Below are positions 1,328 to 64,000 of a stretch of 64,000 bases of DNA, in pieces (within the stretch, counting starts at the first letter, position 1; each line of letters begins with the position of its first letter). The stretch lies in the NCBI GenBank assembly GCA_001799675.1, contig MGTX01000004.1:157591-221590 (forward strand). Reading direction: 5' to 3'. The stretch comes from Elusimicrobia bacterium GWA2_66_18 (GTDB lineage: Bacteria > Elusimicrobiota > Elusimicrobia > UBA1565 > UBA9628). Position numbers and translations under genes: made by a program. The notes beneath the pieces are model-generated. The model ran no database searches. It worked only from the letters and a program-made list of their open reading frames with translations, and was not told the DNA's origin.

Positions 1328-1399
1328 GCCTCCATCGTCTAACGGTTAGGACGCGGCCCTTTCAAGGCTGAAACACGAGTTCGATTCTCGTTGGGGGCA
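1328..1399 (+). tRNA. tRNA-Glu (anticodon UUC)
   Basis: 72-nt cloverleaf with acceptor GCCTCCA/TGGGGGC (one G-U pair), anticodon loop CTTTCAA and T-loop GAGTTCGATTCTC. Confidence 0.9.
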
Positions 1400-31823: not shown

Positions 31824-31846
31824 GGTGCGGAACTTAAAGCGTGGAA

Positions 31847-36929: not shown

Positions 36930-37354
36930 TAGTAATTCGTCCAGACCGAGCCCTTCGCGTCGGTATGCGTGCAATTGACGTGTATCGCTCCGAAAGCCGT
37001 CGTATTTGGAATGTTGTTGTAAACCCAGCCCCCCGTGTCGTCGGAGTCAGCGGCATTGAGCACTGTGCTGGAATCAGAATGATAACCCGGCAACCTGGCC
37101 GGGGCGATGCGCCGCAGGTAACGCGACGACTGCGTCAGCGTGGGGAGATCGTCAGGATACTGCCCCTCCATGTCGCCGTAATATACGCTCAGCGCCTTTC
37201 GAATCGTCCCCAGGCTGCCCTTCGTATATCCTTCGGTGGATAAACGCAGGCTATCGCTGAAATGAGGAATGATGACCGCGGCCAATATCGCAATGATCGC
37301 GACGACCACCATAAGCTCGATGAGGGTAAATCCCGAATTCCTTATTTTAACCAT
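36929..37354 (-). CDS. Type IV (major) pilin / GspG-like pseudopilin
   Basis: MVKIRNSG|FTLIELMVVVAIIAILAAVIIP is a class III signal with G-1, F+1 and E+5. First gene of the operon, with AAGG 6 nt upstream of the ATG. Confidence 0.9.
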   Translation of the reverse strand: MVKIRNSGFTLIELMVVVAIIAILAAVIIPHFSDSLRLSTEGYTKGSLGTIRKALSVYYGDMEGQYPDDLPTLTQSSRYLRRIAPARLPGYHSDSSTVLNAADSDDTGGWVYNNIPNTTAFGAIHVNCTHTDAKGSVWTNY

Positions 37355-47500: not shown

Positions 47501-50500
47501 GCGCAGTAGCGGCGTCCGTCGGTGAGCGCCGCGTCGGGGATGGGGCTGGCCCAGGATGTGGAGGGCGTCAAGGGCGAGGCCAGCGTCGTCGTGGCATAGA
47601 TGGGGACTGCGGAAGCAAAGGAGCCTGCGAGCCAGTTGAAGTGGAGCCCCGTCTCCACCTCGCGAACGTCCACGCGCACGCGCTCAACGGCGGAGCCGTC
47701 CGCCGCGGTGCCGGAGATGGCGCCGCCCAGGGTCGCGACCGCTGCGCCGGTGGGCACATGAAAGGAAGCGGTGGGGCTGGAAAGGCTGGGCGGCGAGACT
47801 CCGAACACCGAACTCGTATCGGAAGCCACGAAGGGCTGGGTCAGGTCCGTGGCGGAGAGGGTGAAATAACCGGTGACCTGGAAAATCAGGCCGGAGAACG
47901 CAAACTGCCCCGCCGCGAGCGCCCGCGGCGCGGGAAGGGTCGCCGAGGAAGTCAAAGCGCCCAGTGCGACCGTATCGGTGATCGTCGAGACCTCGTTGCC
48001 GTAGGGGTCAACGGCGCGCACCGTCGCGCTGAAGGGCACGCCCTTGACCCGGGCGAAAGGAGATCCGGCCTTACCCGTGACGGAGCCCGGCCATGCCGCC
48101 TGCCCGGGCAGAATAACCTGCAGGCGCGCCAGCCCGGCCGGGATCACCGAAATCGTGGAATACCCCAGCCCGAAGGCGGTCGCGGCCGAGACGACGGTGA
48201 CTCGCGGGCTCGGCTCGGCGGTGCGCGGCGTGAACTGAAGCGTCGCCATGCTGGCCGAAAGAGGCTGGGACGAACCCAGGACCGCGTTAGGGTCGTCGCT
48301 GGCCAAGGTCACAGTCCCAGAAACCTGCCAGGCCAAGTCGAAGCGGGAAGACACCGCCAGGACCGTCACCGTGATGACGGCGCCCGCGGTGGAGACGGAG
48401 GGTGTTCCGGTCTTGCCGGGGCCGACGGCGGGGGTGAAGGTCTCGCCCGGCAGGAGGACCACGAGGTTCGGAAAGAAATCCCAGTTGAGATCGCCGCCGG
48501 CGTCGACGTTGCGCCCGTCGTCGGCCAGGATGGTCTGCCCGGAGGAGGCGTCGCAGTCCGAGACCATGACCGCGGTCACGCTCGAGACCGCGGTCACGCG
48601 CAGAGACCACGGCAGGCCCGCGGTCCTGGAGCGCACCCGCATGACGGCCCCCCCGCCCGCGCCAAGACGCAGATCGGCCACGCTCAGAAGCGTGCCCGGG
48701 GCGAAGGCCAAGGTGCTTCCCGCCACGGCGTCGCTCAGCACCGCGACGGTCGCGGAGGTCAGGAAGGCGGCGCTCGTGACCGCGATGGAAAGTCCGTTGA
48801 AGACCGCTCCTCCGTAGACGGCCACGGACTCGTAGCTTCGACCGGCGGCGGCGCCGGCGAGGCTCACGGTGCTCGTCTGCCCGTCGAAGTAGGCGCCCGT
48901 AGACACGAGGAGGCTGCCGGCCAGCGTCAGGTTCCCCGTCCCGGCCGAGAAGGTTCCGGCGTAGACGCTGAAATCGCCGAACAAGACGAGGTCGGAGGCG
49001 GCCTGCACCGGGCCCGTGCCCACGCTCACGAGGTTCCACAGCGTCGAGCCGGGCAACAGGCTCAAGGTCTGGGTCGAGGCTCCCGTCATCGTCAGGCTCG
49101 CCGACGTGGACGCGGAAAAGTCCACGATGCCGCCGGTCTGGAACACGCCGCCGGCAACCGAGACGGTGCTGGCCGCGATCGGGCGCAAGACTCCTCCCGA
49201 TACGACCAGCGGGCCGGAGAGATTCAGCGTCGGAGCGCGGAACACCTCTGCGCCCCCCGCCAAGTTCACGCGCAGCCCGCCGAAAGTGTTCGTCGAAATC
49301 CCGGCGCCGCGGGCGGCGCCCGTGCCCTCGAAGAGGAGCCAGGAATTGGCGACGTCGCCCGCGTAGGACCAATTGGCTCCCGAGGATGGGATCAGATCGG
49401 CGCTTCCGCGCAGGGTGATGGTGGAACCGCCCGGCGCATTGACCACGGTCGAGCCCTGGCGCGGGTCGAAGGAGTTGCCGTAGCCCTCCACGATGAGGTC
49501 TCCCTGGAGGACCGCGGTCTTGTTGGCGGCCAGGGCGAGCTTGGCGTTGACGACGCTTCCCGAGGCCACTTGGATGGAGGAGACGGGAGACCAGATCACC
49601 GTGTGCGACGGATTGACGGCGAGGTAGGTGGAGAAGGCCGTGTCCCAGACGGGGCCCGCGACCGTCAACATCGAGCTCCCGCCGTCGAAGACCGCTCCGG
49701 GCAAGATTCGAAACGAAGAGACGAACCCGTTGATGTTGAGACGCGCGCCCGCGGCGCTCCGGTTGGCCACGACTAGGTCACCGAAAGTCGCGAAGTTGAT
49801 GTTCTGGGGCGTGACTCCCGCCAGTATCGTCGTAGATCCCGTCACGGTGATCGTCTCAAAGGTGGATTGGGTCATGTCTCCGCGGATGGTCAGGAGGGCT
49901 CCTGGGTAGTAGAGGGCGCCGCTGCGCCATTCAAAGCCGGCCAGCGTAGAGACCGTGCTCGAGATGGTAACGCCTGCGGTGGTGGCGACGCGGAAAGTCC
50001 CAAAGGAGCCCGTGGCGAGTTGGCGCACCGTCCGGCTCGAGGCCCCGTCGAAGACGGCCACGCTGGCGCCTCCCAGGACCGCCGTGCCGGATTGCTCCGT
50101 CCAGGACCCTCTCACCGAGATGGTCGAAGCCGCCAAGTCGAGGGTGCCGCTGACCACGATGACGTTTCCCTCGGCCACCGTCGCCGTCGACAGAATCAGA
50201 GCGCCTGCGCCGGCGTCGATGAATAGATTGTCGAAGGAGGCTCCCGCCAATACGCTCGCCGCGCCGGACAGGGCGTTAAAGACCGCGGTCGAACGACTCA
50301 CGACAGCCGCGCCGTAAACCGTCCAGTCACCTCCGATTTGAAGAAGCGTCGTGCTCGCCATCAGCAAGGTCCCGGTGTCCACCGACACGCCCCCCGCCAA
50401 GATGAAACTGGCGCCCGCGGAAGGACTCAGCCGGAGCCCTCCGGGGTTGATATTGGAAACGCGCAGGCCCCCGATGCGCCCCGGCCAGGCCGTCCAGGTC

Positions 50501-52131: not shown

Positions 52132-53354
52132 CACCAATCCCACCTCAATCCCGCCAGAGCCGTCGCGGCCTCGTAGGCATAGCGGTAGTAGCGTTGGTAG
52201 CGCTGGTTGGAGGAGGCGCTGACGCGCTCCACGCTGAACAGCAGACTCAAGCGCCGGGCCATCGGGTAGTCCAGCGACGCGCCGAACGTCCACTCGATCG
52301 TCGTAAGAGAGCCCGAGCCGTAGGCCCCTGTTTCGCCCTGCGGGGGACGCCGCGTATAATGACGCTGCCGCCGCCCCAGCTTCAACTGGGCGGTGACGGG
52401 GCGGCGCGGCGGACCGATCACGACGCTGGCCGAGGGCGCGACGCGCCATTCGACGTAGTCGTAGAAACCGGCAAGGAAGCGTCCGCGAGTCGCATCGTAG
52501 CCGTTCTGGTCGGAGGTATTGGCGTTTACGCCCAGTTCCAAGCCCGCGCGCGCGCGCAGATCCGCGTTCCAGTCGTGGGGCATGCGCAGGGCGAACGCCG
52601 CTGACGTCAGGAAGTCCTGACGGGTCCGTCCGGAGAGTTGCCCTCCCTCGTCGACGAGAGGCTGGGAGGGAAAGCGCGACCAGACGCCCAGCAGCGAGCC
52701 CTCCGCCACGGCGCGTGATCCCAGGGAAGCATCGCCGCCGACACGGAACTGCCAACCCGTGCGGTCCAGCACGCGGTCGCCGACGAGTTCGCGCGCCAGG
52801 GATTGTCCCGAGAACTGGAAGACCGCCTGGGATTCGAGGGTGGTGTAGTTCGGGTAGGCAACCTGGAACCAGTCCACAGCCAAGCGCAGACTATGCGGTG
52901 CAACGGTCATAAGTTCGGCCTCGGCTCCGGCCGTCCAGCGGACCTGATCGTAGAGGCCCAGGCCCCAGGTCTCATCCTTGGTTTCCTTGAGCATCTCGCG
53001 GGCATAGGCGACGGCGGGCTTGAAACGCCAGCGCGAGGACGGCTGCGACCATACCGCGCGGATTGCGAGTCGACTCTCGAAGCGCTCCTGGGCGCTCGTC
53101 GCGGTCCCGAGGACGTCGTTTACGCGGCGAGTGCCCTCATACTCGGCGCGGACGGAGGGCAGCAGCGACAAGCGATCGTCGAGGCGCATCGCCGGCGCAA
53201 AGGAAGCGTCCGCGTTGCCCGAAAGGGAGCCGCGCTCGCCCGCGAAGGATTGCATCCCTCCCAAGACGGTGATCCCGCCGACCGGAGTCCACTCGACAGC
53301 CCCCGCGAAAGACGCGCTCAAAACAAGGATGGCGCTCAGAAAGGAGTGTCTCAC
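52131..53354 (-). CDS. Putative outer-membrane beta-barrel protein
   Basis: GTG start in a GTGA overlap with the upstream stop. Signal-like (V)RHSFLSAILVLSASFAGA. Alternating hydrophobic pattern throughout, and a C-terminal ...GLRWDW aromatic end. Confidence 0.55.
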   Translation of the reverse strand: MRHSFLSAILVLSASFAGAVEWTPVGGITVLGGMQSFAGERGSLSGNADASFAPAMRLDDRLSLLPSVRAEYEGTRRVNDVLGTATSAQERFESRLAIRAVWSQPSSRWRFKPAVAYAREMLKETKDETWGLGLYDQVRWTAGAEAELMTVAPHSLRLAVDWFQVAYPNYTTLESQAVFQFSGQSLARELVGDRVLDRTGWQFRVGGDASLGSRAVAEGSLLGVWSRFPSQPLVDEGGQLSGRTRQDFLTSAAFALRMPHDWNADLRARAGLELGVNANTSDQNGYDATRGRFLAGFYDYVEWRVAPSASVVIGPPRRPVTAQLKLGRRQRHYTRRPPQGETGAYGSGSLTTIEWTFGASLDYPMARRLSLLFSVERVSASSNQRYQRYYRYAYEAATALAGLRWDW

Positions 53355-55013: not shown

Positions 55014-57560
55014 ATGAAATTTGCGCTCATGACGGCGGTCTTCTTTTTTATGTCTTCTCCGCGGCTTTCGGCGCTGGATTGGAGCGTTTGCTATTCCACC
55101 CAAGCCCAGGTTCTAGACGCCATCTGGGCTAATCGCAAGCTTTCCCTGGCCCGCAACCTACAGGTGAGCCTGTCCATCGGAAACCCCTACATCCTCTATG
55201 AGTTCGAGAACTTGACCGCCAATCTTTTGCGCTCAGCCCAGCTTTGCGGAGATTACGGCAAGATCGGCGATCTCGCCCAGCTCTTGTCCGGCGCCACCGA
55301 CTATCTCCAGGTCACCTCCAAATTCAACCACGCGACGGGATCGACGGCTACCTACCGCGAATGGCACTGCGACAGCCCGCTCTGCCCGAATTTCGCCGGC
55401 GCTCCCCACGCCGAAGTCCCACTTGTCAGCTCGCAGTTCCTCTACCTCGCGGCCGCCGCCGTGCACGCCGTGGCCGGGCTCGCCCCCCGGCAGCGGACCG
55501 CCGCGATGCAGCCTATGGCCCAAGCCTATGTCCCCGTCCTGCTTCAGGATCACTACAATAAATGGATTTATGAGACGCGGCAATTCGGATATTGGAGCGT
55601 ATGCGGCGGCCATATCTACGACCATTACGACTATCTCGCTGCGTTACTGAGCGGAGCTTTGCCTTCCAAACCTTCCTATTGCAGGGCGGTCACGGACACC
55701 GACCTGTGGATCATCTCGGGAGTCGTGGAGCTTTTGGCCGCCAACCAGGCCGATCCCGCCCTCGTTCCTATCCCAGCCGACCAGAGGAGGCGGCTCCTGG
55801 CGTACGTGAACCTCGGCACCCGATTAATCCAAAGCCGGATGACGCGGACGGCGCTCAAGGACTTCCAGGGAAACGCCGTTCAGGGCGCCGATTTCTTCGC
55901 CGGCCAATGGTTCGACCACCCCGATTTTTCCTACGCCGGTTACACGGGCGCCGCATTTCCCGGCGCGATCACGCGAAAGACGTCGTTTATTTTCACGACG
56001 TCGACCCCAGGTTACAGCGGCAATTTCCAGGTCATTGACCGCGGGAGCCTGCTCGCATCCCAAGACTCCTCCGTCTCCGCCCCGATCGACCTTCTGATCC
56101 TCAATAACCTGTCTTCGACGACGGTGACGTTTTCCGCATCGAGTCTGCCCCCCGGCACGACGGCGGCCTTCAATCCCCTCGCCTGGAACACGGCGTCCTG
56201 CGGCAAGGCCTGCTCCACGGTTTTAACTTTATCGATCGGCAGCTCGACGCCGACCGGCCATCGTCACGTTACCGTGATGGGAACGGCGGCCAACGGCGTC
56301 CAACGAGCGACTTCTCTTCACCTGCTCGTCGCAAAGCGGCTCCCGCCCGCGCCCCTGTTCGATTTCTCGCTATCGGCGGCGAAAAGCCGTCAGACCAAGG
56401 TCTCGGCCGCTTACACGGTCACGGCCGCGCTCACGGCCGGAGCCGGGGAGTCTGCGCGTTTTTTCCCCGCGCTCTTGCCGCCTGGAGTCGACGCCTCATT
56501 GAGCCCAGGCCGCTGCGCGCCGCCGTGCTCCGCCGATCTGACCCTGACCGTTTCCTCGATAGCCCCCGCCGGGGAAAGCGCCGTCGTCGTCGCCGCCGAC
56601 GACACGCTGCCGGCCGACGGAATCGGCTGGGACATCAGCCACGCGCGGCGCTTTGTCCACGCGCTCGGCACCCTGTACGACAACCGCGCCGTCACGTGGG
56701 AAACCTTCCCCGACGACGCCGCCATGACAGGGGTCGCCAACCAAGTCCTATACAAGATCTTCAACGGCGATTTCAAATATCCGCTGTTCTCGAATTTCAT
56801 GGACGGCAGCAACGGCTGGTACCGCGTCAATTATTCCCAGCGCATCGGATTCGCCCATGCCCCCTATGACCTCTCCAATTCCATCGCCACGGGCGGCTGG
56901 GGCCTTTGGAGCCGGTTCAACCCCGATTTGGGCAGGCTCATGCATTCGCAATGGGACATGTTCGAGTCTACGAATCCGGCGGTGACGGCGTTCTGGAAGC
57001 AGCATTACGGGCTCCACTACATGAATTTCCAAAGAACCGATCCCCTCGTCATCGACCACACGCAATCGCCCACCTACTTGGAGATGCTCCCGGCCCTGGT
57101 GGCGGCCGACGTCTACGGCGCGACCGGCAGCCTTGCGCCGGTCATCACCAGCGTTCTGACCTCGACCGGCACGATAGGAACCGCGTTGAGCTATCAGATC
57201 ACGGCCACCAACAGCCCCACGAGCTTCAACGCCGCGGGCCTGCCTGCGGGCTTGTCGGTCGACACCGTCACGGGCCTCATTTCCGGAACGCCCACGATCT
57301 CCGGGATATCCAACGTAACCATCAGCGCCGCCAACGCGGGCGGAACGGACGCCAAGACCCTGACGTTGAGCGTGTATTCAGCCTGCGACGTCAACCGGGA
57401 TGGGGCGACCAACGCGGTGGATGTGCAATTACTGGTCAATGAGACTCTGGGCGCGGCGGCCTGCACGTCGGATTTAAACCGCGACGGCTTGTGCAATGTG
57501 ATCGATGTCCAAAGGGATGTGAATGCCGGCTTGGGAGGACCGTGTATCCTCGGCCCGTAG
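55014..57560 (+). CDS. Exported protein with Ig-like inserts and a C-terminal putative-Ig (He_PIG-like) + dockerin module
   Basis: Start at Met32 (MKFALMTAVFFFMSSPRLSA). The C-terminus has TGTIGTALSYQITATNSPTSFNAAGLPAGLSVD..GLISGTP followed by a duplicated dockerin-type repeat DVNRDGATNAVDVQLLVN / DLNRDGLCNVIDVQRDVN. The N-terminal catalytic region is unassigned. Confidence 0.7.
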   Translation: MKFALMTAVFFFMSSPRLSALDWSVCYSTQAQVLDAIWANRKLSLARNLQVSLSIGNPYILYEFENLTANLLRSAQLCGDYGKIGDLAQLLSGATDYLQVTSKFNHATGSTATYREWHCDSPLCPNFAGAPHAEVPLVSSQFLYLAAAAVHAVAGLAPRQRTAAMQPMAQAYVPVLLQDHYNKWIYETRQFGYWSVCGGHIYDHYDYLAALLSGALPSKPSYCRAVTDTDLWIISGVVELLAANQADPALVPIPADQRRRLLAYVNLGTRLIQSRMTRTALKDFQGNAVQGADFFAGQWFDHPDFSYAGYTGAAFPGAITRKTSFIFTTSTPGYSGNFQVIDRGSLLASQDSSVSAPIDLLILNNLSSTTVTFSASSLPPGTTAAFNPLAWNTASCGKACSTVLTLSIGSSTPTGHRHVTVMGTAANGVQRATSLHLLVAKRLPPAPLFDFSLSAAKSRQTKVSAAYTVTAALTAGAGESARFFPALLPPGVDASLSPGRCAPPCSADLTLTVSSIAPAGESAVVVAADDTLPADGIGWDISHARRFVHALGTLYDNRAVTWETFPDDAAMTGVANQVLYKIFNGDFKYPLFSNFMDGSNGWYRVNYSQRIGFAHAPYDLSNSIATGGWGLWSRFNPDLGRLMHSQWDMFESTNPAVTAFWKQHYGLHYMNFQRTDPLVIDHTQSPTYLEMLPALVAADVYGATGSLAPVITSVLTSTGTIGTALSYQITATNSPTSFNAAGLPAGLSVDTVTGLISGTPTISGISNVTISAANAGGTDAKTLTLSVYSACDVNRDGATNAVDVQLLVNETLGAAACTSDLNRDGLCNVIDVQRDVNAGLGGPCILGP
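57138..57560 (+). repeat. Putative-Ig + dockerin coding module, copy 1
   Basis: The 423-nt segment aligns colinearly with 59243-59662. By eye more than four-fifths of positions are identical, with one codon indel. Confidence 0.85.
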
Positions 57561-57586
57561 CCGCTGATTCGGCAAAGGAAAAACCA

Positions 57587-59662
57587 ATGATCATATCAAC
57601 AAGGTCTGTTTGCCCGGTTTTATTGGCGGCGCTCGCGGTGTTTTCTTGCGCCGGAGGCTTGTCTTTGGCAAATACAGCCAAGGCCGGGGAATTGGAAGGG
57701 CCGATCCCGCAAGAACTGCCTTTGGGAGTGAGCAATCCTTATGGTCAGGACGATTTTAAAACAAAAGCCGAATTACCGGCAATATTAAAGGATCTCGGTT
57801 TAAGCAAAGGCGAGGATGGCGTCGCCGGGTTTATTGTTGACGAGATAGCCAGGAGACATATGGAGGCGGCTTGCGATGCGACTACTTGCCAGAAATACGA
57901 TTTTTCCTTGGCTAAAGATTTAATAGATCTTGTTGTTGGTCAAGGGAAAGCCAACTTATGGGTAGTGCTGGGCCCGCCTTCAAACTATAAATTCACTGAT
58001 GGGAAAAAAAGGGAAAATGGGACAACCTATTTGCCGAATGGGCCCATTTCACGGCAGGCGCATAAAGATTATCTGACCGCTTTGGTTAACTACGCAACCG
58101 CTTATGGACGTCAGGTCTCTGGCGATTCCGGTTGGCATGTCGCCAGCTGGAATCTGTACAATGAGGTGAGCTCGGAATATAAAAGTACTTTCAATAATGA
58201 TATTGATAAGGCAACTACCGCTTATGCTGATTTCGTGATCGATTCATCAAAAATATTAAGAAAATTAACGCCTCAATCTGAAATTGTCCTGGCTGGCACG
58301 GGATCGGGAACAGACTTGAAAGGAGGACACGGCGAATTTTATAAGCTGGTTTTTTCAAAACTTAAACAAGCCAATCTTGATTATAGTCCGTTCGATTATT
58401 GGGAGTCCCACTGGTTTGGGGAATTTGATAATTATCAGACAAATGAGAAGGATTATAGCGCAAAATATTTCATCAAGTTCTTGCAGGAGAACGGATACGG
58501 CGATAAAAAGTTTCTGATAAGGGCTGGAGGGACTTATTCCGGACAAGACCTTCAGGAAAGGAAAGGGTTGATGGATAATGAGCAGAGCGAGCGAGATCAG
58601 GCGGAATTCTTAGTCAAGAGATTCGTCTACAATCTGGCCAATGGCGTTAAAAAAATACCATGGTCAACTATTTATGAGCGCGCGGAATACCAGGGAGAGA
58701 ACCATGTGCAGTTTCAATATGTGAGCCTGATATATGATGGAACTCCTGATGGTGTTTCAAAAAATCAAAAATGCGTGGACGGATGGCTTCCATGTCCTGA
58801 TCCAGGAAGAGGCGTGAAGAAATTGTCATATTTCGCCTATAAAAAACTGATTGAAGTCTCAAAGGGAAAAGATTGGAGCAAGATTGAAGCCCTAGCGACG
58901 GGAGTGAACGATGTCTACTCCTATAAAATAGTTAATGGCGGCAAAACGAATTATTTCACCTGGTGGGACTGGTGGAATAAATGCCCGCGCCCCAATCTCG
59001 CTAAACCGGGAATGGATACGGCCTGCATAAATAAGTATAGTCCAACCCTATCCATTGCCGTTGACGATAACACGCCTGAAGTCAAAATAACCGAGGCGAT
59101 CCCTGATTTCGCTACCGGACAAGAGGTGGATAATGCCGGCTATGCCAAAGCCTTTAAGACATACACTATCAGTGCGCTTAATGGCAAGGCGGAAATCCCT
59201 CTGGGCATAGTTCCACTGTATGTAACCTACACCGGCAACCCCCCGGTCATCACCAGTGCGCTGACCTCGACCGGCACTATAGGGACCGCTTTTAGCTACC
59301 AGATCACGGCCACCAACAGCCCCACCAGCTTCAACGCCGCGGGCCTGCCGGCGGGATTGTCGGTGAGCACCGGGGGCCTCATCTCCGGAACGCCCTCGAC
59401 GATTGGGACATCCAGCGTGACCATCAGCGCCACGAACGCGGGCGGCACGGGCTCTGCCGGCCTGACCTTGAGCGTCTATTCCGCCTGCGACGTCAACCGG
59501 GACGGGTCGACCAACGTGGTGGACGTGCAATTGCAGGTCAATCAGGCTTTGGGCGTGGCGGCGTGCACGTCGGATTTGAACCGCGACGGCTTCTGCAACG
59601 TCATCGACGTTCAAAGGGGCGTCAATGCCGGTTTGGGAGGGCAATGTGTCCTGGGCCCGTAA
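57587..59662 (+). CDS. Clan GH-A-like glycoside hydrolase with a C-terminal putative-Ig + dockerin module
   Basis: Start at Met33, preceded by AAAGGAAAAA. Signal peptide MIISTRSVCPVLLAALAVFSCAGG. WNLYNEVSSEY has an NE acid/base-type motif. The C-terminal 139 aa are nearly identical to the end of the upstream gene. Confidence 0.65.
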   Translation: MIISTRSVCPVLLAALAVFSCAGGLSLANTAKAGELEGPIPQELPLGVSNPYGQDDFKTKAELPAILKDLGLSKGEDGVAGFIVDEIARRHMEAACDATTCQKYDFSLAKDLIDLVVGQGKANLWVVLGPPSNYKFTDGKKRENGTTYLPNGPISRQAHKDYLTALVNYATAYGRQVSGDSGWHVASWNLYNEVSSEYKSTFNNDIDKATTAYADFVIDSSKILRKLTPQSEIVLAGTGSGTDLKGGHGEFYKLVFSKLKQANLDYSPFDYWESHWFGEFDNYQTNEKDYSAKYFIKFLQENGYGDKKFLIRAGGTYSGQDLQERKGLMDNEQSERDQAEFLVKRFVYNLANGVKKIPWSTIYERAEYQGENHVQFQYVSLIYDGTPDGVSKNQKCVDGWLPCPDPGRGVKKLSYFAYKKLIEVSKGKDWSKIEALATGVNDVYSYKIVNGGKTNYFTWWDWWNKCPRPNLAKPGMDTACINKYSPTLSIAVDDNTPEVKITEAIPDFATGQEVDNAGYAKAFKTYTISALNGKAEIPLGIVPLYVTYTGNPPVITSALTSTGTIGTAFSYQITATNSPTSFNAAGLPAGLSVSTGGLISGTPSTIGTSSVTISATNAGGTGSAGLTLSVYSACDVNRDGSTNVVDVQLQVNQALGVAACTSDLNRDGFCNVIDVQRGVNAGLGGQCVLGP
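59243..59662 (+). repeat. Putative-Ig + dockerin coding module, copy 2
   Basis: See copy 1. This high-GC module is attached to a low-GC gene body. Confidence 0.85.
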
Positions 59663-62600
59663 ACGCAGGCCTGACTATTATTGGGCATATTCTAAAATCC
59701 TCTTGAGTTTTCTAGCCGCTCTATTTTTATTATCCAGCGATATCATCTTTGCGCAGGAAACTTCCCAAATATCAACGACCTCGCTATTTATGCATATCGG
59801 CATCAGCACCCGCCAGTTTTCAGCCGAGGAAATGGTAAGGATCGCCAATAATTACAGCATCTTGAATATCGCAAAATTTCATGCCCAGTGGGACAGCGCC
59901 AGACAGCAGGAAGATGCACGATACATAAAGAATAAAAATAATAGCATAAAGATAAATGTTTATTACAGTTCCTCTTTGATGTTCTGGATGGATAAGTCCA
60001 CCACTTCAAATGATAATTTTAAAAAATATTATAACAGGGAGAGGGCTGGGTTTAAAGATGATTGGCTGTTGCGGGACAAGAAAGGCAACGTTATATATCT
60101 TGATGACGCCAATACTGCTTTCGTCGATCTTTCCAATGCCCAATACCGGGAGTGGGCCATCGGCGTCATAAGTCATTGGAAGCAGAATACGCCTTATGAC
60201 GGCGTTTTCTTCGATAATTCCAGGCCTTTGGGCGATTACGGAAAAATCACGACGACCTCAACCATCAGCGGCTGGAACGTCGATTGGAATGTTTTAATAA
60301 GCACCAATAAAGTCTCTGATTATAATTTGGGATTGAATCAGTTGTTTATCGAATCGAAGAGAGCGTTTGAGAGTATTATTTATAATGGGATCGGTCGTAG
60401 AAATTATACGCCCAGCAGGAATACGGATCTTCTTGAATACTCCGATGGAACAATGAACGAAGGTTTCTGCATGTGGAGACAAGATGCGAGCGATGGAACC
60501 GGGAAAGACTATAGACTGTGGGCCCCTGAAGAGATGCTGAATGATATTGGCATCATGCTTAGTTCAAGTGGGGCTCCGCACAATAAAACTATTCTACAAA
60601 AGGTCAATCACAGCGGCTCGACAGCTCTCTATAACAGCGATCAGGCCGCTATTATTAATGCAAAGCAAATCAAAAGATATTGCCTTGGCAGTTTCCTGCT
60701 CGGTCATAGACCCGGTTACACTTTTTTTAAATACGGCCCGGATTATGGTCCGAGAGAACTTAGTTCAGATCCGAAGGAAATTGCGTTGGATTTGGGAAGT
60801 CCTATTGATAACAAATATGCCGGTGTTGCGAGTGATGCCTATAAACGTGAATTTGAGAATGGTATTGTGTATGTCAATTTGTCGAATGACGCAACCGCGT
60901 TCATATCAGCTCCTTATCCAATGACTTTAATGAACGGAGCCACGGAGACCGCACAATACGACCAGGGAGCGAGCGTATCGGTGCCGCCTAAGGACGCATT
61001 CTTCTTTAATTGGTCGCATTCAGCGCTCTTCCTTAAAAATGGATCGATGGGAGCGTGGACATCTAATGTTCCATTTAATAATATTGTCAACGACCCCATG
61101 TTTGGCTGGCAAGTGTTTAAATCCACGGATTTTATAGCGTACAGCGCTCAGTATCCGTCTGAACTGGCGAACCCAGCTAGGCCAATTATCATCAACTTCA
61201 GCCGCGCTGAAGATATCAGCGATAACGGACTCGATATTCGAGTGGAAGCGATCAAGAAAGAAATGGACGCATTACTTGCTAATCCAGCCTACAAACAAAA
61301 GATACGAGGCGTTAATTGGGATTGGGAAAATGACACAGGTGTCTCCATAAGCACTGGGCTCGCCGCTTCGACATTGAAGAAAATTTATGGTTACAGCCAC
61401 AGAAGGGGATTAATCTTTGGCATCACCGTCCAGCCTGGAGATATATCTCTATCGCGCGTTGGTATTATCGATTTGGCTCAGGTTAAATCTTTTTCCGACT
61501 TCTTTATGCCCATGGAGTACGCTCAGTGGTTCGGGGGCAATGCATGCGACAAGGATGCGGAGGGCAATTTTTTGACGGAGCAGGAGTGCTTCAATCGAAG
61601 AAAAATAAGAATTAACAAGGATTTGACTAAATTCAGCGCGCTGAGAACCTCCGGCGTTCCCGTCATTGTTGCTGCAAATATTAAAACACTTAATTCGCCC
61701 ATCGAAAAGCTTAGTCCTTGTCAAATATATGATCTTTATAAAAACGTTCTATACTCCACATTTACCCCGACCGTCGATGGTTTTGCAATCTGGAAGCTTA
61801 AAGAATTGGATAAAGACTATATGACCGTCTTTAATAGCATCAAGGACGGCAATCCAATCAAGAGTTCAGCTTGCCCGCTGCCGACCGTGTCCTTGACCGC
61901 GCCTACGGCGGGCGTCTCGGTTTCGGGCTCGGCGGTCGCGGTCTCGGCCGATGCCGCAGACGACGTGGGCGTGACGGGCGTGCAGTTCAAGCTCGACGGC
62001 GCCAATCTCGGCTCGGAGGACAAGGTTGCCCCGTATGGCGTGAGTTGGAACACGAGGTCGGCCGCCGCCGGCGCCCATGTCCTGACGGCCGTGGCGCGAG
62101 ATGCCGCCGGCAACGCTTCGACTTCGACCGCGGTGAGCGTCACGGTCGACAATACGCCGCCCGCCATCAGTTCCGCGGTTGCCACGGAGATCACCAGCAA
62201 CGGGGCGAGCGTCGGTTGGACGACGAGCGAGCCGGGAGATACGCAGGTGGAGTACGGCACCTCGACGGCCTATGGAACGATGACGACGCTCAACGCGACG
62301 CCGGTGACGGCGCACAGCCAGGCCCTGTCGGGCCTGAGCGCGGGCACGCTCTATCATTTCCGCGCCCGGACGCGCGACGCGGCGGGCAATCTCGCGGTTT
62401 CAGAGGACCAGACGCTATTTCTTAAATCAATCGGAATTTGGCCGGGTCCGGCTTTTAAAGACAACAATCCCTTAATCAACGATTTGGTTTTTGGCTGGCA
62501 GGTTTTGGGAAGTTCAACGTTTATATCTTATTGCGGGCAATATCCCAGCGAATGCTCCAAGACCAGGCCCGTGATGATCTCGTATGCCCCTGTCGCGAGG

Positions 62601-64000
62601 AACGATGCATATGTTTTGAGCACACAAACAACTACGATTAAGGCGAATATCGATTCATTGCTGGCAAATAATACATATAAGCAAAAGATATCCGGCATAA
62701 CTTGGGATTGGGAATACAGTGATACCAATGCTATCGACAATGTTCTGGCATCGGCAGTGCTCAAGGATGTTTATGAATACGCCCATAGCAAGGGCTTGCT
62801 CTTCGGTTTGACCGTCCAATCAGGAAACAGGAGTCTCTACAATGCCGGCTTAGTCAAGGGAATTTACACCAATAGCACGGATATGCAAGAAGACTTGGCA
62901 AAGATTAAAAACTATTCGGATTTTTTTATGCCGATGGAGTATGCCCAGTGGTTTGGAGGAGACCCCGGCAATTCCTGCCTTACGGATCCCAATGGGCCGG
63001 AGGCCTGCTGGAATCAAAGAAAAATAAGAATAAATAATGATCTGGCAAAATTCGAAAACATGGGCATCCCCGTTATTGCTTTATCGACCATAAAAACGAC
63101 AGCCACCGAGCCGGTCGAAAGATTATCCGCCTGCCAGATGTATGATGCCTACAAGAACGTTCTTTACTCCACCTATACCGCCACCGCCCGCGGTTTCGCC
63201 GTCTGGAATCCAAAATACTTAAATAATTATTATATGGCCGTTTTTAATGAAATAAATAACAGCAATCCTTATAAGAGCTCAACTTGCCCAGTCGACAACG
63301 CGGCGCCCGTCATCAACTCCGCGGCCGCCGCGGCGATCTCGAGCAGCGCGGCGAGCGTCGGCTGGACGACGAACGAGCCGGGCGATACGCAGGTGGAGTA
63401 CGGGACCTCGTCGGCCTACGCGACGATGTACTCATCGATGACGGCGCTCAACGAGACGCTGGCGACGGCGCACAGCCAGGTCCTGTCGGGCCTGAGCGCG
63501 TCGACGCTCTATCATTTCCGTGTCCGGTCGTACGACGCGGCGGGCAATCTCGCGGTTTCGGAGGATTCGACTTTCACGACCGCGGCCGCGACCGATGTGA
63601 CGGCGCCGACGATGTCCTTGACCACGCCGACGGCGGGCGCCTTGGTTGCGGGCCCGGCGGTCGCGATCTCGGCCGAGGCCGCGGACGATATCGGCGTGAC
63701 GGGCGTGCAGTTTAAGCTTGACGGGGCCAATCTCGGCTTGGAAGATACGGCCCCCCCATACGGCGTCAACTGGAACACGAGGTCGGTCGCCGCCGGGGTC
63801 CATGTCCTGGCGGCCGTGGCGCGAGACGCCGCCGGCAACGCTTCGACTTCGACCGTGGTGAGCGTCACGGTCGATAACGCGCCGCCCATCATCAGCGCCG
63901 TGGCCGCCGCGGAGGTCTCGAGCGGCGCGGCGACGATTAGCTGGATCACCGATGAGGCCTCCAGTTCCCGGGTCGAATACGGAACCTCGACGGCTTATGG
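59625..64000 (+). CDS. 3'-open multidomain glycosidase-like surface protein (>1,450 aa), absent from the supplied ORF track
   Basis: Hand translation in the frame with codon starts divisible by 3 found no stop in the stretches I translated. The track lists no ORF in that frame after 59.6 kb, as expected for one ORF lacking a stop in the window. Candidate starts are ATG 59625, GTG 59646 and TTG 59703. Signal-like KILLSFLAALFLLSSDIIFAQE. Domain order is a GH114/GHL-like TIM barrel (PYDGVFFDNS), module A (..GVNWDWEN..FFMPMEYAQWFGG), Ig-like, FN3-like, module B (..GITWDWEY..FFMPMEYAQWFGG), FN3-like, Ig-like, FN3-like. Confidence 0.75.
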   Translation, partial: MPVWEGNVSWARKRRPDYYWAYSKILLSFLAALFLLSSDIIFAQETSQISTTSLFMHIGISTRQFSAEEMVRIANNYSILNIAKFHAQWDSARQQEDARYIKNKNNSIKINVYYSSSLMFWMDKSTTSNDNFKKYYNRERAGFKDDWLLRDKKGNVIYLDDANTAFVDLSNAQYREWAIGVISHWKQNTPYDGVFFDNSRPLGDYGKITTTSTISGWNVDWNVLISTNKVSDYNLGLNQLFIESKRAFESIIYNGIGRRNYTPSRNTDLLEYSDGTMNEGFCMWRQDASDGTGKDYRLWAPEEMLNDIGIMLSSSGAPHNKTILQKVNHSGSTALYNSDQAAIINAKQIKRYCLGSFLLGHRPGYTFFKYGPDYGPRELSSDPKEIALDLGSPIDNKYAGVASDAYKREFENGIVYVNLSNDATAFISAPYPMTLMNGATETAQYDQGASVSVPPKDAFFFNWSHSALFLKNGSMGAWTSNVPFNNIVNDPMFGWQVFKSTDFIAYSAQYPSELANPARPIIINFSRAEDISDNGLDIRVEAIKKEMDALLANPAYKQKIRGVNWDWENDTGVSISTGLAASTLKKIYGYSHRRGLIFGITVQPGDISLSRVGIIDLAQVKSFSDFFMPMEYAQWFGGNACDKDAEGNFLTEQECFNRRKIRINKDLTKFSALRTSGVPVIVAANIKTLNSPIEKLSPCQIYDLYKNVLYSTFTPTVDGFAIWKLKELDKDYMTVFNSIKDGNPIKSSACPLPTVSLTAPTAGVSVSGSAVAVSADAADDVGVTGVQFKLDGANLGSEDKVAPYGVSWNTRSAAAGAHVLTAVARDAAGNASTSTAVSVTVDNTPPAISSAVATEITSNGASVGWTTSEPGDTQVEYGTSTAYGTMTTLNATPVTAHSQALSGLSAGTLYHFRARTRDAAGNLAVSEDQTLFLKSIGIWPGPAFKDNNPLINDLVFGWQVLGSSTFISYCGQYPSECSKTRPVMISYAPVARNDAYVLSTQTTTIKANIDSLLANNTYKQKISGITWDWEYSDTNAIDNVLASAVLKDVYEYAHSKGLLFGLTVQSGNRSLYNAGLVKGIYTNSTDMQEDLAKIKNYSDFFMPMEYAQWFGGDPGNSCLTDPNGPEACWNQRKIRINNDLAKFENMGIPVIALSTIKTTATEPVERLSACQMYDAYKNVLYSTYTATARGFAVWNPKYLNNYYMAVFNEINNSNPYKSSTCPVDNAAPVINSAAAAAISSSAASVGWTTNEPGDTQVEYGTSSAYATMYSSMTALNETLATAHSQVLSGLSASTLYHFRVRSYDAAGNLAVSEDSTFTTAAATDVTAPTMSLTTPTAGALVAGPAVAISAEAADDIGVTGVQFKLDGANLGLEDTAPPYGVNWNTRSVAAGVHVLAAVARDAAGNASTSTVVSVTVDNAPPIISAVAAAEVSSGAATISWITDEASSSRVEYGTSTAY
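61881..62415 (+). repeat. High-GC Ig-like + FN3-like coding module, copy 1
   Basis: VGVTGVQFKLDGANLGSEDKVAPYGVSWNTRSAAAGAHVLTAVARDAAGNASTSTAVSVTVDN followed by ASVGWTTSEPGDTQVEYGTSTAYG...LYHFRARTRDAAGNLAVSED. It is colinear with 63599-64000 at high nucleotide identity. Confidence 0.8.
63296..64000 (+). repeat. High-GC FN3-like, Ig-like, FN3-like coding modules (copies 2/3), cut by the window end
   Basis: ASVGWTTNEPGDTQVEYGTSSAYA...LYHFRVRSYDAAGNLAVSED, then IGVTGVQFKLDGANLGLEDTAPPYGVNWNTRSVAAGVHVLAAVARDAAGNASTSTVVSVTVDN, then ATISWITDEASSSRVEYGTSTAYG. Confidence 0.8.

What the first reader, a model, noticed from the sequence alone, without database searches (positions are those of the whole stretch)
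57561..64000. Intragenic GC mosaic: about 33-40% GC catalytic modules spliced in frame to about 65% GC Ig/FN3/dockerin modules
Composition switches abruptly at domain boundaries inside continuous ORFs.
- Low GC: 57.59-59.23 kb, 59.66-61.87 kb and 62.42-63.29 kb.
- High GC: 59.24-59.66 kb, 61.88-62.41 kb and 63.30-64.0 kb.

Hand counts give 20/60 G+C at 60301-60360 and 39/60 at 63841-63900. The high-GC pieces match host composition and are repeated within and between genes. The low-GC pieces encode the putative glycosidase domains.

This pattern suggests recent acquisition of foreign catalytic cassettes that were fused, without amelioration, to resident anchoring or spacer modules. Such sharp compositional chimerism within single ORFs is unusual. 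An alternative explanation is an assembly chimera.
Basis: partly seen in the sequence, partly recalled or inferred. Interest (0 to 1): 0.7.

Follow-up and report, generated by a model that had tools for sequence, protein, structure and literature searches.

The report
Low-GC enzyme modules on high-GC anchors
A GC-rich groundwater Elusimicrobia bacterium encodes secreted multi-domain enzymes whose catalytic parts look borrowed from GC-poor bacteria and are joined in frame to its own repeated anchor modules; the pattern is real and recurs across many genes.

Summary
Inside two continuous ORFs, GC switches within a few bases between about 44% (GC3 0.46-0.52) and 65-70% (GC3 0.84-0.87). The host background is 68% (GC3 0.83-0.93).

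It is not a misassembly. Four assemblies agree, and two other MAGs carry orthologues about 79-83% identical in DNA with the same junction.

The host is an Elusimicrobiota bacterium from an aquifer metagenome. Every high-GC block is a repeated Big_7/FN3 or Ig-He_PIG-dockerin-like module. These modules evolve in concert within each genome, and their homology ends exactly at the GC switches.

The low-GC blocks are carbohydrate-active-type bodies:
- a clan GH-A barrel resembling PslG
- GHL15
- a GH20-like module
- an unassigned barrel-like module

The nearest non-mosaic relatives of gene 1's body sit in uniformly 39-45% GC genomes, including a Parcubacteria MAG, and they lack the anchor.

The pattern is systemic. 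In this clade, 19 of 23 anchor-bearing genes have low-GC bodies. In 46 loci from other organisms the difference is about zero.

The best reading is domain-level transfer fused to resident anchors and then shuffled through the repeats. "Recent and unameliorated" is only partly right: the gene-2 fusion predates a divergence of dS about 1, and the relatives are partly ameliorated.

The parts
55014..57560 (+). Gene 0. A secreted protein with a high-GC body of unknown family (GC 0.616, GC3 0.775) and the same C-terminal He_PIG plus dockerin-like anchor (57114-57557). It shows that the anchor also sits on a host-like gene.
   Evidence: ORF found. The gene call as 848 aa is. Pfam He_PIG scores 35.4 bits and Dockerin_1 scores 21.8 bits. 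The anchor is 83% identical in DNA to gene 1's anchor.
57584..57715 (+). Gene 1 leader with signal-peptide-like sequence (MIISTRSVCPVLLAALAVFSCAGG...). GC is intermediate at 0.545. It has no counterpart in the low-GC homologues.
57716..59230 (+). Gene 1 catalytic body, low GC (0.444, GC3 about 0.46). It is a (beta/alpha)8 barrel plus beta-sandwich of clan GH-A type and belongs to no Pfam family. Its closest relatives are in low-GC genomes, including a Parcubacteria MAG.
   Evidence: Composition. Homologues are 55-69% identical. The AlphaFold model has pLDDT 86. The best Foldseek match is PslG 5bx9 at E 8e-17, followed by GH51, GH30 and GH39-like structures. There is no PDB sequence hit.
59231..59662 (+). 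Gene 1 anchor: He_PIG-type Ig domain plus dockerin-like module with two DxNxDGxxNxxD loops, followed by the stop codon. High GC (0.65, GC3 0.84). It is a repeated unit.
   Evidence: The four positions at which two assemblies differ within the window all lie here, at 59465-59482.
59625..61016 (+). Gene 2 start, signal peptide and GHL15 (PF14885) putative glycoside hydrolase module. Low GC. The true start is probably ATG 59625 or TTG 59703. Gene callers used ATG 59790, which cuts off the signal peptide that the orthologues retain.
   Evidence: Pfam GHL15 scores 55.7 bits against a cut-off of 27.
61017..61877 (+). Gene 2 'domX' copy 1. A low-GC module of about 287 aa with no family assignment and an alternating beta/alpha pattern. 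It ends ...KSSACP just before the GC switch.
   Evidence: The AlphaFold model is poor (pLDDT 63). GH18-like TIM-barrel matches are only weak, at E about 1e-5.
61878..62411 (+). Gene 2 high-GC linker block 1: Big_7 Ig domain plus FN3. GC 0.695, GC3 0.85. It is repeated at 63605-64132 with 83% DNA identity.
62412..63290 (+). Gene 2 'domX' copy 2. Low GC (0.442). It is 52% identical in protein to copy 1 and ends ...KSSTCP.
63291..64000 (+). Gene 2 high-GC linker block 2: FN3, Big_7 and FN3. GC 0.686, GC3 0.87. It runs past the window end to about 64154. Beyond that lie a low-GC GH20-like module (about 64155-65828) and a high-GC Ig-Ig-He_PIG-dockerin-like anchor ending at 66833.

Best explanation
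**What it is**
- The window comes from the chromosome of a GC-rich (about 68%) groundwater Elusimicrobiota bacterium.
- Genes 1 and 2 belong to a large set of secreted, cellulosome-style enzymes.
- Each consists of one or more catalytic bodies of carbohydrate-active type followed by resident non-catalytic modules. These are Big_7/FN3 spacers and a C-terminal Ig-He_PIG-dockerin-like anchor.

**How it arose (inferred)**
- The catalytic bodies were acquired at domain level from GC-poor bacteria. For gene 1 the donor was a Parcubacteria-like lineage.
- They were fused in frame, at inter-domain linkers, to host modules that already exist in many copies.

**How it is maintained**
- The repeated host modules keep exchanging sequence by gene conversion within each genome. 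This keeps them at host composition and makes the composition step coincide exactly with the limit of homology.
- The repeats also serve as crossover sites through which the low-GC cassettes are reordered and moved between genes.
- The unique catalytic bodies can change composition only by point mutation, so they ameliorate slowly and to different extents in different lineages.

**Shown versus inferred**
- Shown: the composition steps, the repeat structure, concerted evolution of the anchors, orthologous junctions, the low-GC affinity of the gene 1 body, and the recurrence of the pattern.
- Inferred: the direction and number of transfers for the other bodies, the fusion mechanism (illegitimate recombination followed by selection), and the surface-anchoring role of the dockerin-like module.
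For: **1. Host identity and composition**
- The closest named enolase relatives are all Elusimicrobia, with 88% identity to 'Elusimicrobia bacterium RBG_16_66_12'.
- Housekeeping genes fill the window. Their GC3 is 0.83-0.93.

**2. Foreign character of the low-GC bodies**
- GC3 is 0.46-0.52.
- The FYMINK/GARP amino-acid fractions are 0.29-0.345 / 0.21-0.23. Low-GC relatives show 0.33-0.36 / 0.20-0.225, and host proteins show 0.18 / 0.34.
- The GC-normalised tetranucleotide signature correlates at 0.64-0.74 with non-homologous flanks of the low-GC relatives' contigs. It correlates at 0.57 with the host.

**3. Gene 1 body**
- Its 40 relatives (42-69% identity for most) all have low-GC-type composition.
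- Five of five relatives with DNA lie in uniformly 39-45% GC contigs with housekeeping flanks: L005, L006, L088 (= Parcubacteria GW2011_GWA2_38_13b), L090 and L092.
- The window sequence is nested inside them in a neighbour-joining tree.
- Their proteins stop (...PVFVEEK*) exactly where gene 1's anchor starts.

**4. Gene 2 body**
- The closest non-mosaic relative, L008, is 54-57% identical in protein and lies in a 40% GC contig. Its Ig modules are also low-GC and of a different type.

**5. High-GC blocks are repeats**
- Homology blocks begin and end at the GC switches.
- The 26 anchors cluster by genome, not by orthology.
- L007's Big_7 module is closer to the window's second copy (88.5%) than to the positional one.

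**6. Shuffling**
- The orthologous gene in L009 has the domX' and GH20 cassettes in the opposite order.

**7. Recurrence and specificity**
- 19 of 23 evaluable anchor-bearing genes in this clade have low-GC bodies. The minimum 600-base window is 0.37-0.48 GC.
- One locus, L014, is an array of eight such genes.
- In 46 loci carrying more distant anchors from other organisms, anchor GC minus body GC ranges from -0.06 to +0.085.

**8. Amelioration in progress**
- Orthologues L007 and L009 have GC3 0.605 against 0.487 in the window.
- Their polarised third-position changes are AT>GC 45-46 against GC>AT 21-23.

**9. Not an artefact**
- Four assemblies made with different assemblers agree at 99.97-100% identity.
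- The junction ...SSACP|LPTVSLTAP... is conserved in L007 and L009, which come from another study.
Against: - Donor identity is documented only for gene 1. The GHL15 family is spread over organisms with both low-GC-type and high-GC-type protein composition (27 against 20 of 58). No taxon names could be obtained for its nearer members.
- Nineteen separate in-frame fusions is a lot to ask of illegitimate recombination, and no mechanism was seen.
- No integrase, transposase, phage or plasmid link was found next to the islands.
- In the window's own lineage, polarised substitutions show no clear AT>GC excess (30-37 against 24-30 at first and second codon positions). Taken alone, this would also fit a stable low-GC state. 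The outgroup is saturated at third positions, so that part of the test is uninformative.
- The neighbour-joining tree has no support values.
- The dockerin-like module scores just below Pfam's cut-off (16.7-21.8 bits against 22.9).
- No cohesin partner was seen in the window.
Confidence: 0.68

Rival explanations
1. **Differential GC evolution in place.**
- The genes, or whole arrays, are of one origin.
- The repeated modules have been driven to high GC because they recombine constantly with their paralogues, through GC-biased gene conversion or faster homogenisation to host composition.
- The unique bodies, which rarely recombine, sit at or drift toward an AT-biased mutational equilibrium.
For: - Every high-GC segment is a repeated module, and every low-GC segment is unique or deeply diverged.
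- The composition steps coincide with the limits of homology.
- The anchors evolve in concert.
- No net AT>GC flux is detectable in the window's own lineage.
- Whole arrays such as L014 are low-GC except for the anchors.
Against: - Anchor GC3 (0.81-0.87) equals the host genome value and does not exceed it.
- The same anchor sits on high-GC bodies: gene 0, L012_2557, L019 and L022.
- The low-GC homologues of gene 1 have no anchor at all.
- In the low-GC relative L008, the Ig modules are of a different type (He_PIG/Big_9 rather than Big_7/FN3).
- The gene 1 body is 55-69% identical to proteins of a different phylum-level lineage, which requires transfer in any case.
- L007 and L009 show net AT>GC flux in the bodies.
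Confidence: 0.12
2. **Import of ready-made mosaics.**
- The fusions happened in some other lineage.
- The finished mosaic genes or gene arrays were then passed horizontally among GC-rich Elusimicrobiota.
- On this view the window's organism is only a recipient, and the different degrees of amelioration reflect different residence times.
For: - The orthologous mosaic genes in the window and in L009 lie in unrelated genomic neighbourhoods with no synteny.
- The window copy is less ameliorated than L007 and L009, although they share the same junction.
Against: - The anchors cluster by genome.
- The islands sit between core genes with no mobility genes nearby: mutS, mutL and msrAB on one side and a CDF transporter and PFOR on the other in L017.
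- The window itself has FecR and a giant gene upstream.
- This rival moves the fusion event elsewhere but does not change its nature.
Confidence: 0.12
3. **Selection keeps the catalytic modules AT-rich.** Possible reasons would be translation kinetics, secretion, or mRNA structure. No transfer is involved.
For: - The closest relatives, L007 and L009, show the same pattern in both segment classes.
- dN/dS of about 0.15 shows the bodies are under purifying selection.
Against: - The amino-acid composition, not only codon choice, is donor-like.
- The relatives have moved from GC3 0.49 to 0.61 with a directional flux.
- Other secreted proteins with the same anchor are GC-rich.
- Forty-six loci from other organisms show no such contrast.
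Confidence: 0.04
4. **Assembly chimera.** Reads of a GC-rich genome and of co-occurring GC-poor (candidate phyla radiation) genomes were joined by the assembler.
For: - The sample comes from an aquifer metagenome, and one close relative of gene 1's body is from a Parcubacteria MAG named GW2011.
- Contigs break inside the anchor repeats.
- The only differences between assemblies lie inside the anchors.
Against: - There are six alternations in one open frame of 2347 codons.
- Identical junctions appear in four assemblies: megahit k127, megahit k141, JGI, and the ANAN16 scaffold.
- The same junction appears in orthologues 79-83% identical in DNA from a different study.
- No sequence is shared across the joins that could mislead a de Bruijn graph.
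- Nineteen further genes have the same layout.
Confidence: 0.01

Closest known systems
Cellulosomes of anaerobic gut fungi (Neocallimastigomycota): bacterial-derived catalytic domains joined to fungal dockerins
   Same: - Catalytic CAZyme domains are acquired by horizontal transfer and made to work in the recipient by fusion to the recipient's own non-catalytic docking module.
- The assembly is thus chimeric at domain level. This is summarised in PMC6690862, citing Haitjema et al. 2017.
   Different: - Here both partners are bacteria, with an Elusimicrobiota recipient and a Parcubacteria-like donor for gene 1.
- The anchor is a bacterial type-I-like dockerin preceded by He_PIG/Ig modules.
- The fusion is still visible as a razor-sharp 25-point GC step.
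- No scaffoldin or cohesin partner has been identified.
Bacterial cellulosomal enzymes (Clostridia, Ruminococcus): signal peptide, catalytic module and type I dockerin
   Same: - The layout is signal peptide, glycoside-hydrolase-type body, spacers, and a C-terminal module with two DxNxDGxxNxxD calcium-loop repeats.
- There are many paralogous genes, some in tandem arrays.
   Different: - The phylum differs (Elusimicrobiota).
- Dockerin scores fall just under Pfam's cut-off.
- A He_PIG Ig domain is always attached to the dockerin-like module.
- No cohesin was found.
- The bodies resemble hydrolases of exopolysaccharide or amino-sugar polymers (PslG-like, GHL15, GH20-like) rather than classical cellulases.
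- From my own knowledge, body and dockerin of classical cellulosomal genes do not differ in base composition.
Rhs / CdiA polymorphic toxins: conserved core with displaced C-terminal tips of different GC
   Same: - A conserved, recombining scaffold is joined in frame to variable cassettes of discordant composition.
- The cassette boundary is marked by a GC change together with the end of homology (PMC2935791).
- Exchange takes place through the conserved part.
   Different: - The polarity is reversed: here the variable body is N-terminal and the conserved anchor is C-terminal.
- The cassettes are large glycosidase-type enzymes, not toxins.
- There are no immunity genes.
- Several cassettes can be strung within one ORF, separated by repeated Ig/FN3 spacers.
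Mosaic genes made by interspecies recombination (for example pneumococcal or neisserial penicillin-binding protein genes; own knowledge)
   Same: In both cases there are intragenic blocks of foreign sequence with sharp borders.
   Different: - In those genes, homologous segments of the same gene replace each other.
- Here non-homologous domains from unrelated lineages are concatenated.

Membership tests
Horizontally acquired DNA (domain-level transfer) | Composition (GC, GC3, oligonucleotide signature, amino-acid usage) departs from the host and matches that of putative donors. | tested here: met
   GC3 is 0.46-0.52 against 0.83-0.93 in the host. FYMINK/GARP amino-acid usage is donor-like. The tetranucleotide correlation is 0.64-0.74 with donor-like flanks and 0.57 with the host.
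Horizontally acquired DNA (domain-level transfer) | Closest relatives outside the lineage belong to a distant taxon, and the sequence is nested among them. | tested here: met
   This applies to the gene 1 body. Its relatives are 55-69% identical and all 40 are of low-GC type. One is a named Parcubacteria genome. The sequence is nested among them in a neighbour-joining tree, though without support values.
Horizontally acquired DNA (domain-level transfer) | The same criterion (distant-taxon relatives and nesting) applied to the gene 2 bodies: GHL15, domX and GH20-like. | tested here: inconclusive
   The nearest non-mosaic relative, L008, is in a 40% GC contig. No taxon names were obtainable. The wider GHL15 family is compositionally mixed. 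The GH20-like module was not searched.
Horizontally acquired DNA (domain-level transfer) | Mobility genes or a vector are found next to the acquired DNA. | tested here: not met
   There is no integrase or transposase in the flanks of the window island or of L017. There are no phage or plasmid matches. This feature is supportive when present but is not required.
Dockerin-bearing (cellulosome-type) enzymes | A type I dockerin: two tandem segments of about 22 residues, each with a calcium-binding loop. | tested here: inconclusive
   Both DxNxDGxxNxxD loops are present and invariant in five anchors. Pfam Dockerin_1 scores are 16.7, 19.2 and 21.8 bits, all below the cut-off of 22.9.
Dockerin-bearing (cellulosome-type) enzymes | A carbohydrate-active catalytic module and an N-terminal signal peptide. 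| tested here: met
   GHL15 scores 55.7 bits against a cut-off of 27. Glyco_hydro_20 scores 29.0 bits against 22.3. The gene 1 model has a clan GH-A fold resembling PslG. Hydrophobic leaders are read directly from the sequence. No signal-peptide predictor was run.
Dockerin-bearing (cellulosome-type) enzymes | A cohesin-bearing scaffoldin or anchoring partner in the same genome. | not tested
   No Cohesin hit appeared among the window proteins that were scanned. The rest of the genome was not available for scanning.
Polymorphic toxin systems (Rhs/CdiA type) | A toxin tip with an adjacent immunity gene and a delivery core (YD repeats or filamentous haemagglutinin). | tested here: not met
   Pfam finds no YD, Rhs or toxin domains. 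The next genes downstream are further enzymes, separated by 15-130 bases. This system is an analogy only.
Assembly chimera | Junctions that are not reproducible across assemblies or samples, or that break the reading frame. | tested here: not met
   Four assemblies are identical across all junctions. The junction is conserved in L007 and L009. The frame stays open for 2347 codons.

The most novel reading that the evidence does not exclude
A clade of GC-rich groundwater Elusimicrobiota has built most of its secreted, anchor-bearing enzyme arsenal by repeatedly capturing catalytic domains from co-resident GC-poor ultra-small bacteria (Parcubacteria and other candidate phyla radiation lineages). 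At least 19 genes are involved.

On this reading:
- The captured domains are domesticated on a concertedly evolving Ig-He_PIG-dockerin cassette.
- That cassette also serves as the recombination site for cassette exchange. It would act as a domain-level, in-frame analogue of a gene-cassette capture system.
- The pattern would imply intimate physical contact between these Elusimicrobiota and candidate phyla radiation cells, either as host and episymbiont or as predator and prey.
- It would also imply that the enzymes (PslG-like, GHL15, GH20-like) target bacterial surface or biofilm polysaccharides.
Probability: 0.22. Interest if true: 0.8.

Novelty: new variant of a known kind. Interest (0 to 1): 0.6.

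Why it matters
**Evolutionary mechanism**
- If the reading holds, these genes are an unusually clean natural record of domain-level horizontal transfer. Donor and recipient parts of single proteins can still be told apart base by base.
- The same fusion can be followed through three lineages at different stages of amelioration.
- The case shows how repeated non-catalytic modules can do two jobs. They give foreign enzymes the recipient's secretion and anchoring context, and they provide homology for shuffling the foreign cassettes.
- It points to gene flow from candidate phyla radiation bacteria into a free-living phylum. Such flow is rarely documented and bears on who these ultra-small cells live with.

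**Practical consequences**
- Such contigs are prone to breaking at the anchor repeats. The window's contigs end inside an anchor.
- They are also prone to mis-binning. The 2.8 kb contig L007 was binned as Thermodesulfobacteriota.
- Enzyme repertoires of these organisms are therefore likely under-counted in metagenome-assembled genomes.

Tried and rejected
1. **High-GC signal peptide idea.** I first thought the 5' leaders of the mosaic genes were also high-GC resident pieces, because the first 150-450 bases of the ORFs read 0.6-0.7 GC. Aligning the ends of the anchors showed this was an artefact. Mechanical ORFs extend upstream, in another frame, into the preceding anchor. Real homology stops 10-40 bases after the stop codon, and the next gene is low-GC from its start. 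Rejected.
2. **Polarising the window branch with L008.** Third positions are saturated (dS above 4), so the apparent GC>AT excess on the window branch is uninformative. Only first and second positions, and the window-as-outgroup test for L007 and L009, were used.
3. **Looking up gene 1 with my own start codon.** It is not on record. The deposited gene call is 600 aa. P0046, the NCBI member on a 224 kb contig, could not be fetched.
4. **Phage or plasmid vector.** No tblastn match was found for either body.
5. **Taxon names for GHL15 relatives.** The full HMMER scan gave 187 relatives, but the cluster look-up returned a single name, Egibacteraceae.
6. **Structure of domX.** Only four sequences were available. 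The model has pLDDT 63, and the weak GH18-like hits were not relied on.
7. **Literature.** Searches found nothing on dockerins in Elusimicrobia, candidate phyla radiation to Elusimicrobia transfer, or GC-mosaic dockerin genes.
8. **Tandem repeats.** None were found in the window.
9. **Large GC3 steps in panC, the glycerate kinase gene, rluD and T2SSF**. These are artefacts of over-extended mechanical ORFs, not real intragenic mosaics.

Full report
**1. Checking the observation**

A 200-base sliding profile over 54-64 kb shows plateaus of 0.40-0.48 GC alternating with plateaus of 0.64-0.72. The rest of the window is 0.62-0.77, and the first 54 kb average 0.677.

The segment values are as follows:

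| Segment | GC |
|---|---|
| 57590-59230 | 0.452 |
| 59660-61870 | 0.434 |
| 62420-63290 | 0.442 |
| 59240-59660 | 0.648 |
| 61880-62410 | 0.695 |
| 63300-64000 | 0.686 |

The class figure of 33-40% is too low; the true value is about 44%.
- The contrast is strongest at third codon positions: 0.46-0.52 in the low segments against 0.84-0.87 in the high segments.
- Well-delimited host genes in the window (enolase, GDH, glmM, histidine kinase) have GC3 0.87-0.93. Their largest step between adjacent 80-codon windows is 0.06-0.17. Gene 1 reaches 0.38 and gene 2 reaches 0.45.
- Both genes are uninterrupted reading frames.

**2. Anatomy**

- **Gene 0 (55014-57560).** It has a GC-rich body with no family match. 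It ends in a He_PIG Ig domain plus a dockerin-like module.
- **Gene 1 (57584-59662).** It has a leader, a low-GC body of about 505 aa, and the same anchor.
- **Gene 2.** It starts at 59625 or 59703 and runs off the window. In the fuller contig L004 it is 2347 aa. Its layout, is:
  - GHL15 + domX (low GC)
  - Big_7 + FN3 (high GC)
  - second domX (low GC)
  - FN3 + Big_7 + FN3 (high GC)
  - GH20-like + Ig (low GC)
  - Ig + Ig + He_PIG + dockerin-like (high GC)
- **Repeats.** A self-comparison shows that every high-GC block is a DNA-level repeat (76-91% identity). The blocks start and stop at 59231, 61880, 62407, 63291 and 64132-64147, which are the GC switch points.
- **Sharpness.** At single-base resolution the switches take a few bases and lie in inter-domain linkers. 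An example is ...AGC TCA ACT TGC CCA | GTC GAC AAC GCG GCG CCC... at 63290/63291.

**3. What the bodies are**

- The gene 1 body matches no Pfam family and no PDB sequence.
- A model built from 30 homologues (pLDDT 86) is a (beta/alpha)8 barrel plus beta-sandwich. Its best structural matches are the exopolysaccharide hydrolase PslG (E 8e-17), followed by GH51, GH30 and GH39-type enzymes.
- GHL15 and Glyco_hydro_20 pass Pfam's cut-offs.
- domX gave only a poor model with weak GH18-like matches.
- 'Putative glycosidase domains' is therefore fair for three of the four body types and open for domX.

**4. Provenance and the chimera question**

- The window is part of a 118 kb contig from an aquifer metagenome (SRR1658344, PRJNA268031).
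- The same 18.8 kb appears in a JGI assembly, in a k141 megahit assembly at 100% identity, and in the ANAN16 scaffold at 99.97% identity.
- The five differing bases all lie inside anchors. The shorter contigs end inside gene 2's anchor. This is what repeats do to assemblies.
- Independent support comes from orthologues of gene 2's first 870 residues in two MAG contigs from another study, L007 and L009. They are 79-83% identical in DNA to the window and to each other. They have the same low-to-high switch at the identical junction ...SSACP|LPTVSLTAP....
- A chimera is therefore not tenable.

**5. Host**

- The window carries enolase, glmM, GDH, panC, a glycerate kinase gene, rluD, lgt and type IV pilus genes.
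- The enolase's named relatives are all Elusimicrobia/Elusimicrobiota. The best is 88% identical to a MAG named RBG_16_66_12.
- L009 is also labelled Elusimicrobiota. Its flanks are GC-rich (0.65-0.72) and carry housekeeping genes.
- L007, a 2.8 kb contig, is labelled Thermodesulfobacteriota. This is probably a binning error.

**6. Affinities of the low-GC bodies**

*Gene 1 body*
- The search returned 43 relatives besides the window's own protein. Most cover only the catalytic 73% of the query at 42-69% identity.
- The named ones are a Parcubacteria genome (GW2011_GWA2_38_13b, 60% identity) and, more distantly, a Patescibacteria bacterium.
- All five relatives whose DNA I fetched lie in uniformly low-GC contigs, where the gene matches its neighbours and housekeeping genes flank it: L005 at 0.39, L006 at 0.447, L088 at 0.395, L090 at 0.39, and the sister L092 at 0.44.
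- All 40 family members examined have low-GC-type amino-acid composition (mean FYMINK 0.342, GARP 0.198).
- The window protein is nested within them in a neighbour-joining tree.
- Their proteins end where gene 1's anchor begins.

*Gene 2 body*
- The nearest non-mosaic relative, L008, is 54-57% identical in protein. It sits in a 40% GC contig, and there the intervening Ig modules are low-GC and of another type.
- Wider GHL15 relatives could not be placed taxonomically.

*All low-GC bodies of genes 1 and 2 together*
- Their amino-acid usage is donor-like.
- Their GC-normalised tetranucleotide signature is closer to non-homologous flanks of the low-GC contigs (0.64-0.74) than to the host (0.57).

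**7. Behaviour of the high-GC modules**

- An alignment of five anchors is 85% identical on average, with both calcium-loop motifs invariant.
- A tree of 26 anchor copies groups them by genome or array rather than by gene. The anchor of L009's gene-2 orthologue groups with L009's other anchor, not with the window's gene-2 anchor.
- L007's Big_7 is 88.5% identical to the window's second Big_7 copy, but only about 79-83% identical to the positional copy.
- This is concerted evolution by gene conversion.
- The order of the cassettes also differs between genomes. L009 has the GH20-like cassette before the second domX. This is as expected if crossovers occur in the repeated spacers.

**8. Generality**

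- Scanning metagenome contigs with the anchor alignment returned 76 loci.
- Among copies 84-90% identical to the window's anchors, from the same sample and a related genome set, the bodies are low-GC. One locus, L014, is an array of eight consecutive genes. Each has a low-GC body (BNR/sortilin-type propellers, an NPCBM-containing enzyme, right-handed beta-helices, and unknowns) followed by a high-GC Ig-He_PIG-dockerin-like anchor.
- Counting all 23 evaluable genes of this clade, 19 have a low-GC body and 4 have a GC-rich one.
- In 46 loci with more distant anchors from other organisms, anchor GC minus body GC is -0.06 to +0.085.
- The islands sit between core genes, without mobility genes.

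**9. Age**

| Comparison (window against L007 and L009) | dS | dN |
|---|---|---|
| Low-GC part | 0.96-0.98 | 0.14-0.15 |
| High-GC part | 0.34-0.35 | 0.13-0.19 |

- The similar dN in the two parts argues that the fused gene descended as one piece.
- GC3 of the low part is 0.487 in the window and 0.605 in both relatives.
- On the L007 and L009 branches, third-position changes are AT>GC 45-46 against GC>AT 21-23 (p = 0.01 and 0.003). The high part shows no bias.
- Gene 2's fusion is therefore old relative to synonymous turnover, and its bodies are ameliorating. The window copy is the least changed.
- Gene 1 has no mosaic orthologue outside its own population and may be younger.

**10. Interpretation**

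- The best-supported account is domain-level acquisition of catalytic bodies from GC-poor bacteria, fused in frame to resident repeated modules. The repeats are kept at host composition by gene conversion and are used as recombination sites. The unique bodies ameliorate slowly.
- The main rival is in-place differential evolution, with biased gene conversion raising the GC of the repeats. It explains why the steps coincide with the limits of homology. It does not explain four things:
  - the anchor-less low-GC homologues;
  - the different Ig types in L008;
  - the presence of the same anchors on GC-rich bodies;
  - anchor GC3 that equals rather than exceeds the host value.
- Selection for AT-rich bodies and misassembly are poorly supported.
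- The scale of the phenomenon and the lack of a visible fusion mechanism are the main weaknesses of the favoured account.

**11. Comparison with known systems**

- In logic it is closest to the cellulosomes of anaerobic fungi, where bacterial catalytic domains are joined to fungal dockerins (PMC6690862).
- In layout it resembles bacterial cellulosomal enzymes.
- In genetics it resembles Rhs/CdiA systems, where a recombining conserved part carries GC-discordant cassettes and the boundary is marked by a GC change (PMC2935791).
- It is not a member of the toxin systems: there is no toxin, no immunity gene and no YD core.
- Its membership of true cohesin-dockerin systems is unproven. The dockerin scores are just below the Pfam cut-off and no cohesin was found.
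- I found no paper describing this pattern in Elusimicrobiota, or gene flow from candidate phyla radiation bacteria to them.

**12. Verdict**

This is a real, non-artefactual and recurrent intragenic GC mosaic. I class it as a new variant of a known kind (domain-level transfer plus fusion to a host anchor). It is notable for its sharpness, its scale and the probable donor-recipient pair. Interest is 0.6.

Noticed in passing
window 43-867 (+), 1241-1313 and 1328-1399 (+): An ORF6N (KilA-N-type antirepressor-like) gene lies next to tRNA-Lys(ttt) and tRNA-Glu(ttc). The first 2 kb of the window have lower GC (0.565-0.59). This may be a remnant of a mobile element or prophage at a tRNA site.
   Followed up: partly
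window 41503-52755 (-): A giant ORF of 3750 aa carries CarboxypepD_reg, FlgD_ig and fn3_3 hits. The + strand shows a strong AT skew of 0.17-0.35 across 41-49 kb. It lies directly upstream of a 407-aa gene with no family match, a FecR-like gene and the anchor-bearing genes. Its function is unknown.
   Followed up: partly
window 36929-37354 (-): A type IV pilin or pseudopilin gene (MVKIRNSGFTLIELMVV...) sits next to an AT-rich intergenic stretch. Together they explain the GC dip to 0.549 at 37-38 kb. A T2SS-F/PilC-type gene lies at 30606-33263.
   Followed up: partly
window 59465-59482; L001/L004 18721 (= 66580): All five differences between the megahit contig and the ANAN16 scaffold lie inside anchor repeats. 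The shorter contigs end inside gene 2's anchor. The exact anchor sequence may be a blend of paralogues or may be polymorphic through gene conversion.
   Followed up: partly
window 59625-59790: Public gene calls start gene 2 at ATG 59790, and some start gene 1 at 57860 (giving 600 aa). Both calls cut off signal-peptide-like leaders that the orthologues keep. Gene 2's likely start at ATG 59625 overlaps the end of gene 1 by 38 bases.
   Followed up: partly
L007 (whole, 2775 bases): This contig carries the gene 2 orthologue and is deposited in a MAG labelled Thermodesulfobacteriota. The longer orthologous contig L009 and the window's housekeeping genes point to Elusimicrobiota. The mosaic composition probably misleads binning.
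   Followed up: partly
L014 584-19245: This locus is an array of eight same-strand genes with intergenic gaps of 15-25 bases. Each has a low-GC body and a high-GC Ig-He_PIG-dockerin-like anchor. Five of them share a short conserved start (MKRIF...). The array comes from a related genome set (Ga0154316) and is not identical to the window's organism.
   Followed up: partly
L009 16503-19571: This is a second mosaic gene in the related Elusimicrobiota MAG. It has a very low-GC (0.37-0.44) N-terminal region of about 560 aa with no family match. Calx-beta, Laminin_G_3 and the anchor follow. The window has no counterpart.
   Followed up: no
L008 3094-4566: In the low-GC relative, the next gene encodes BNR/sialidase-like repeats and a long Ser-rich linker. 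It ends with the start of another GHL15 module. This suggests that multi-module strings of these bodies already exist in the donor-like lineage.
   Followed up: no
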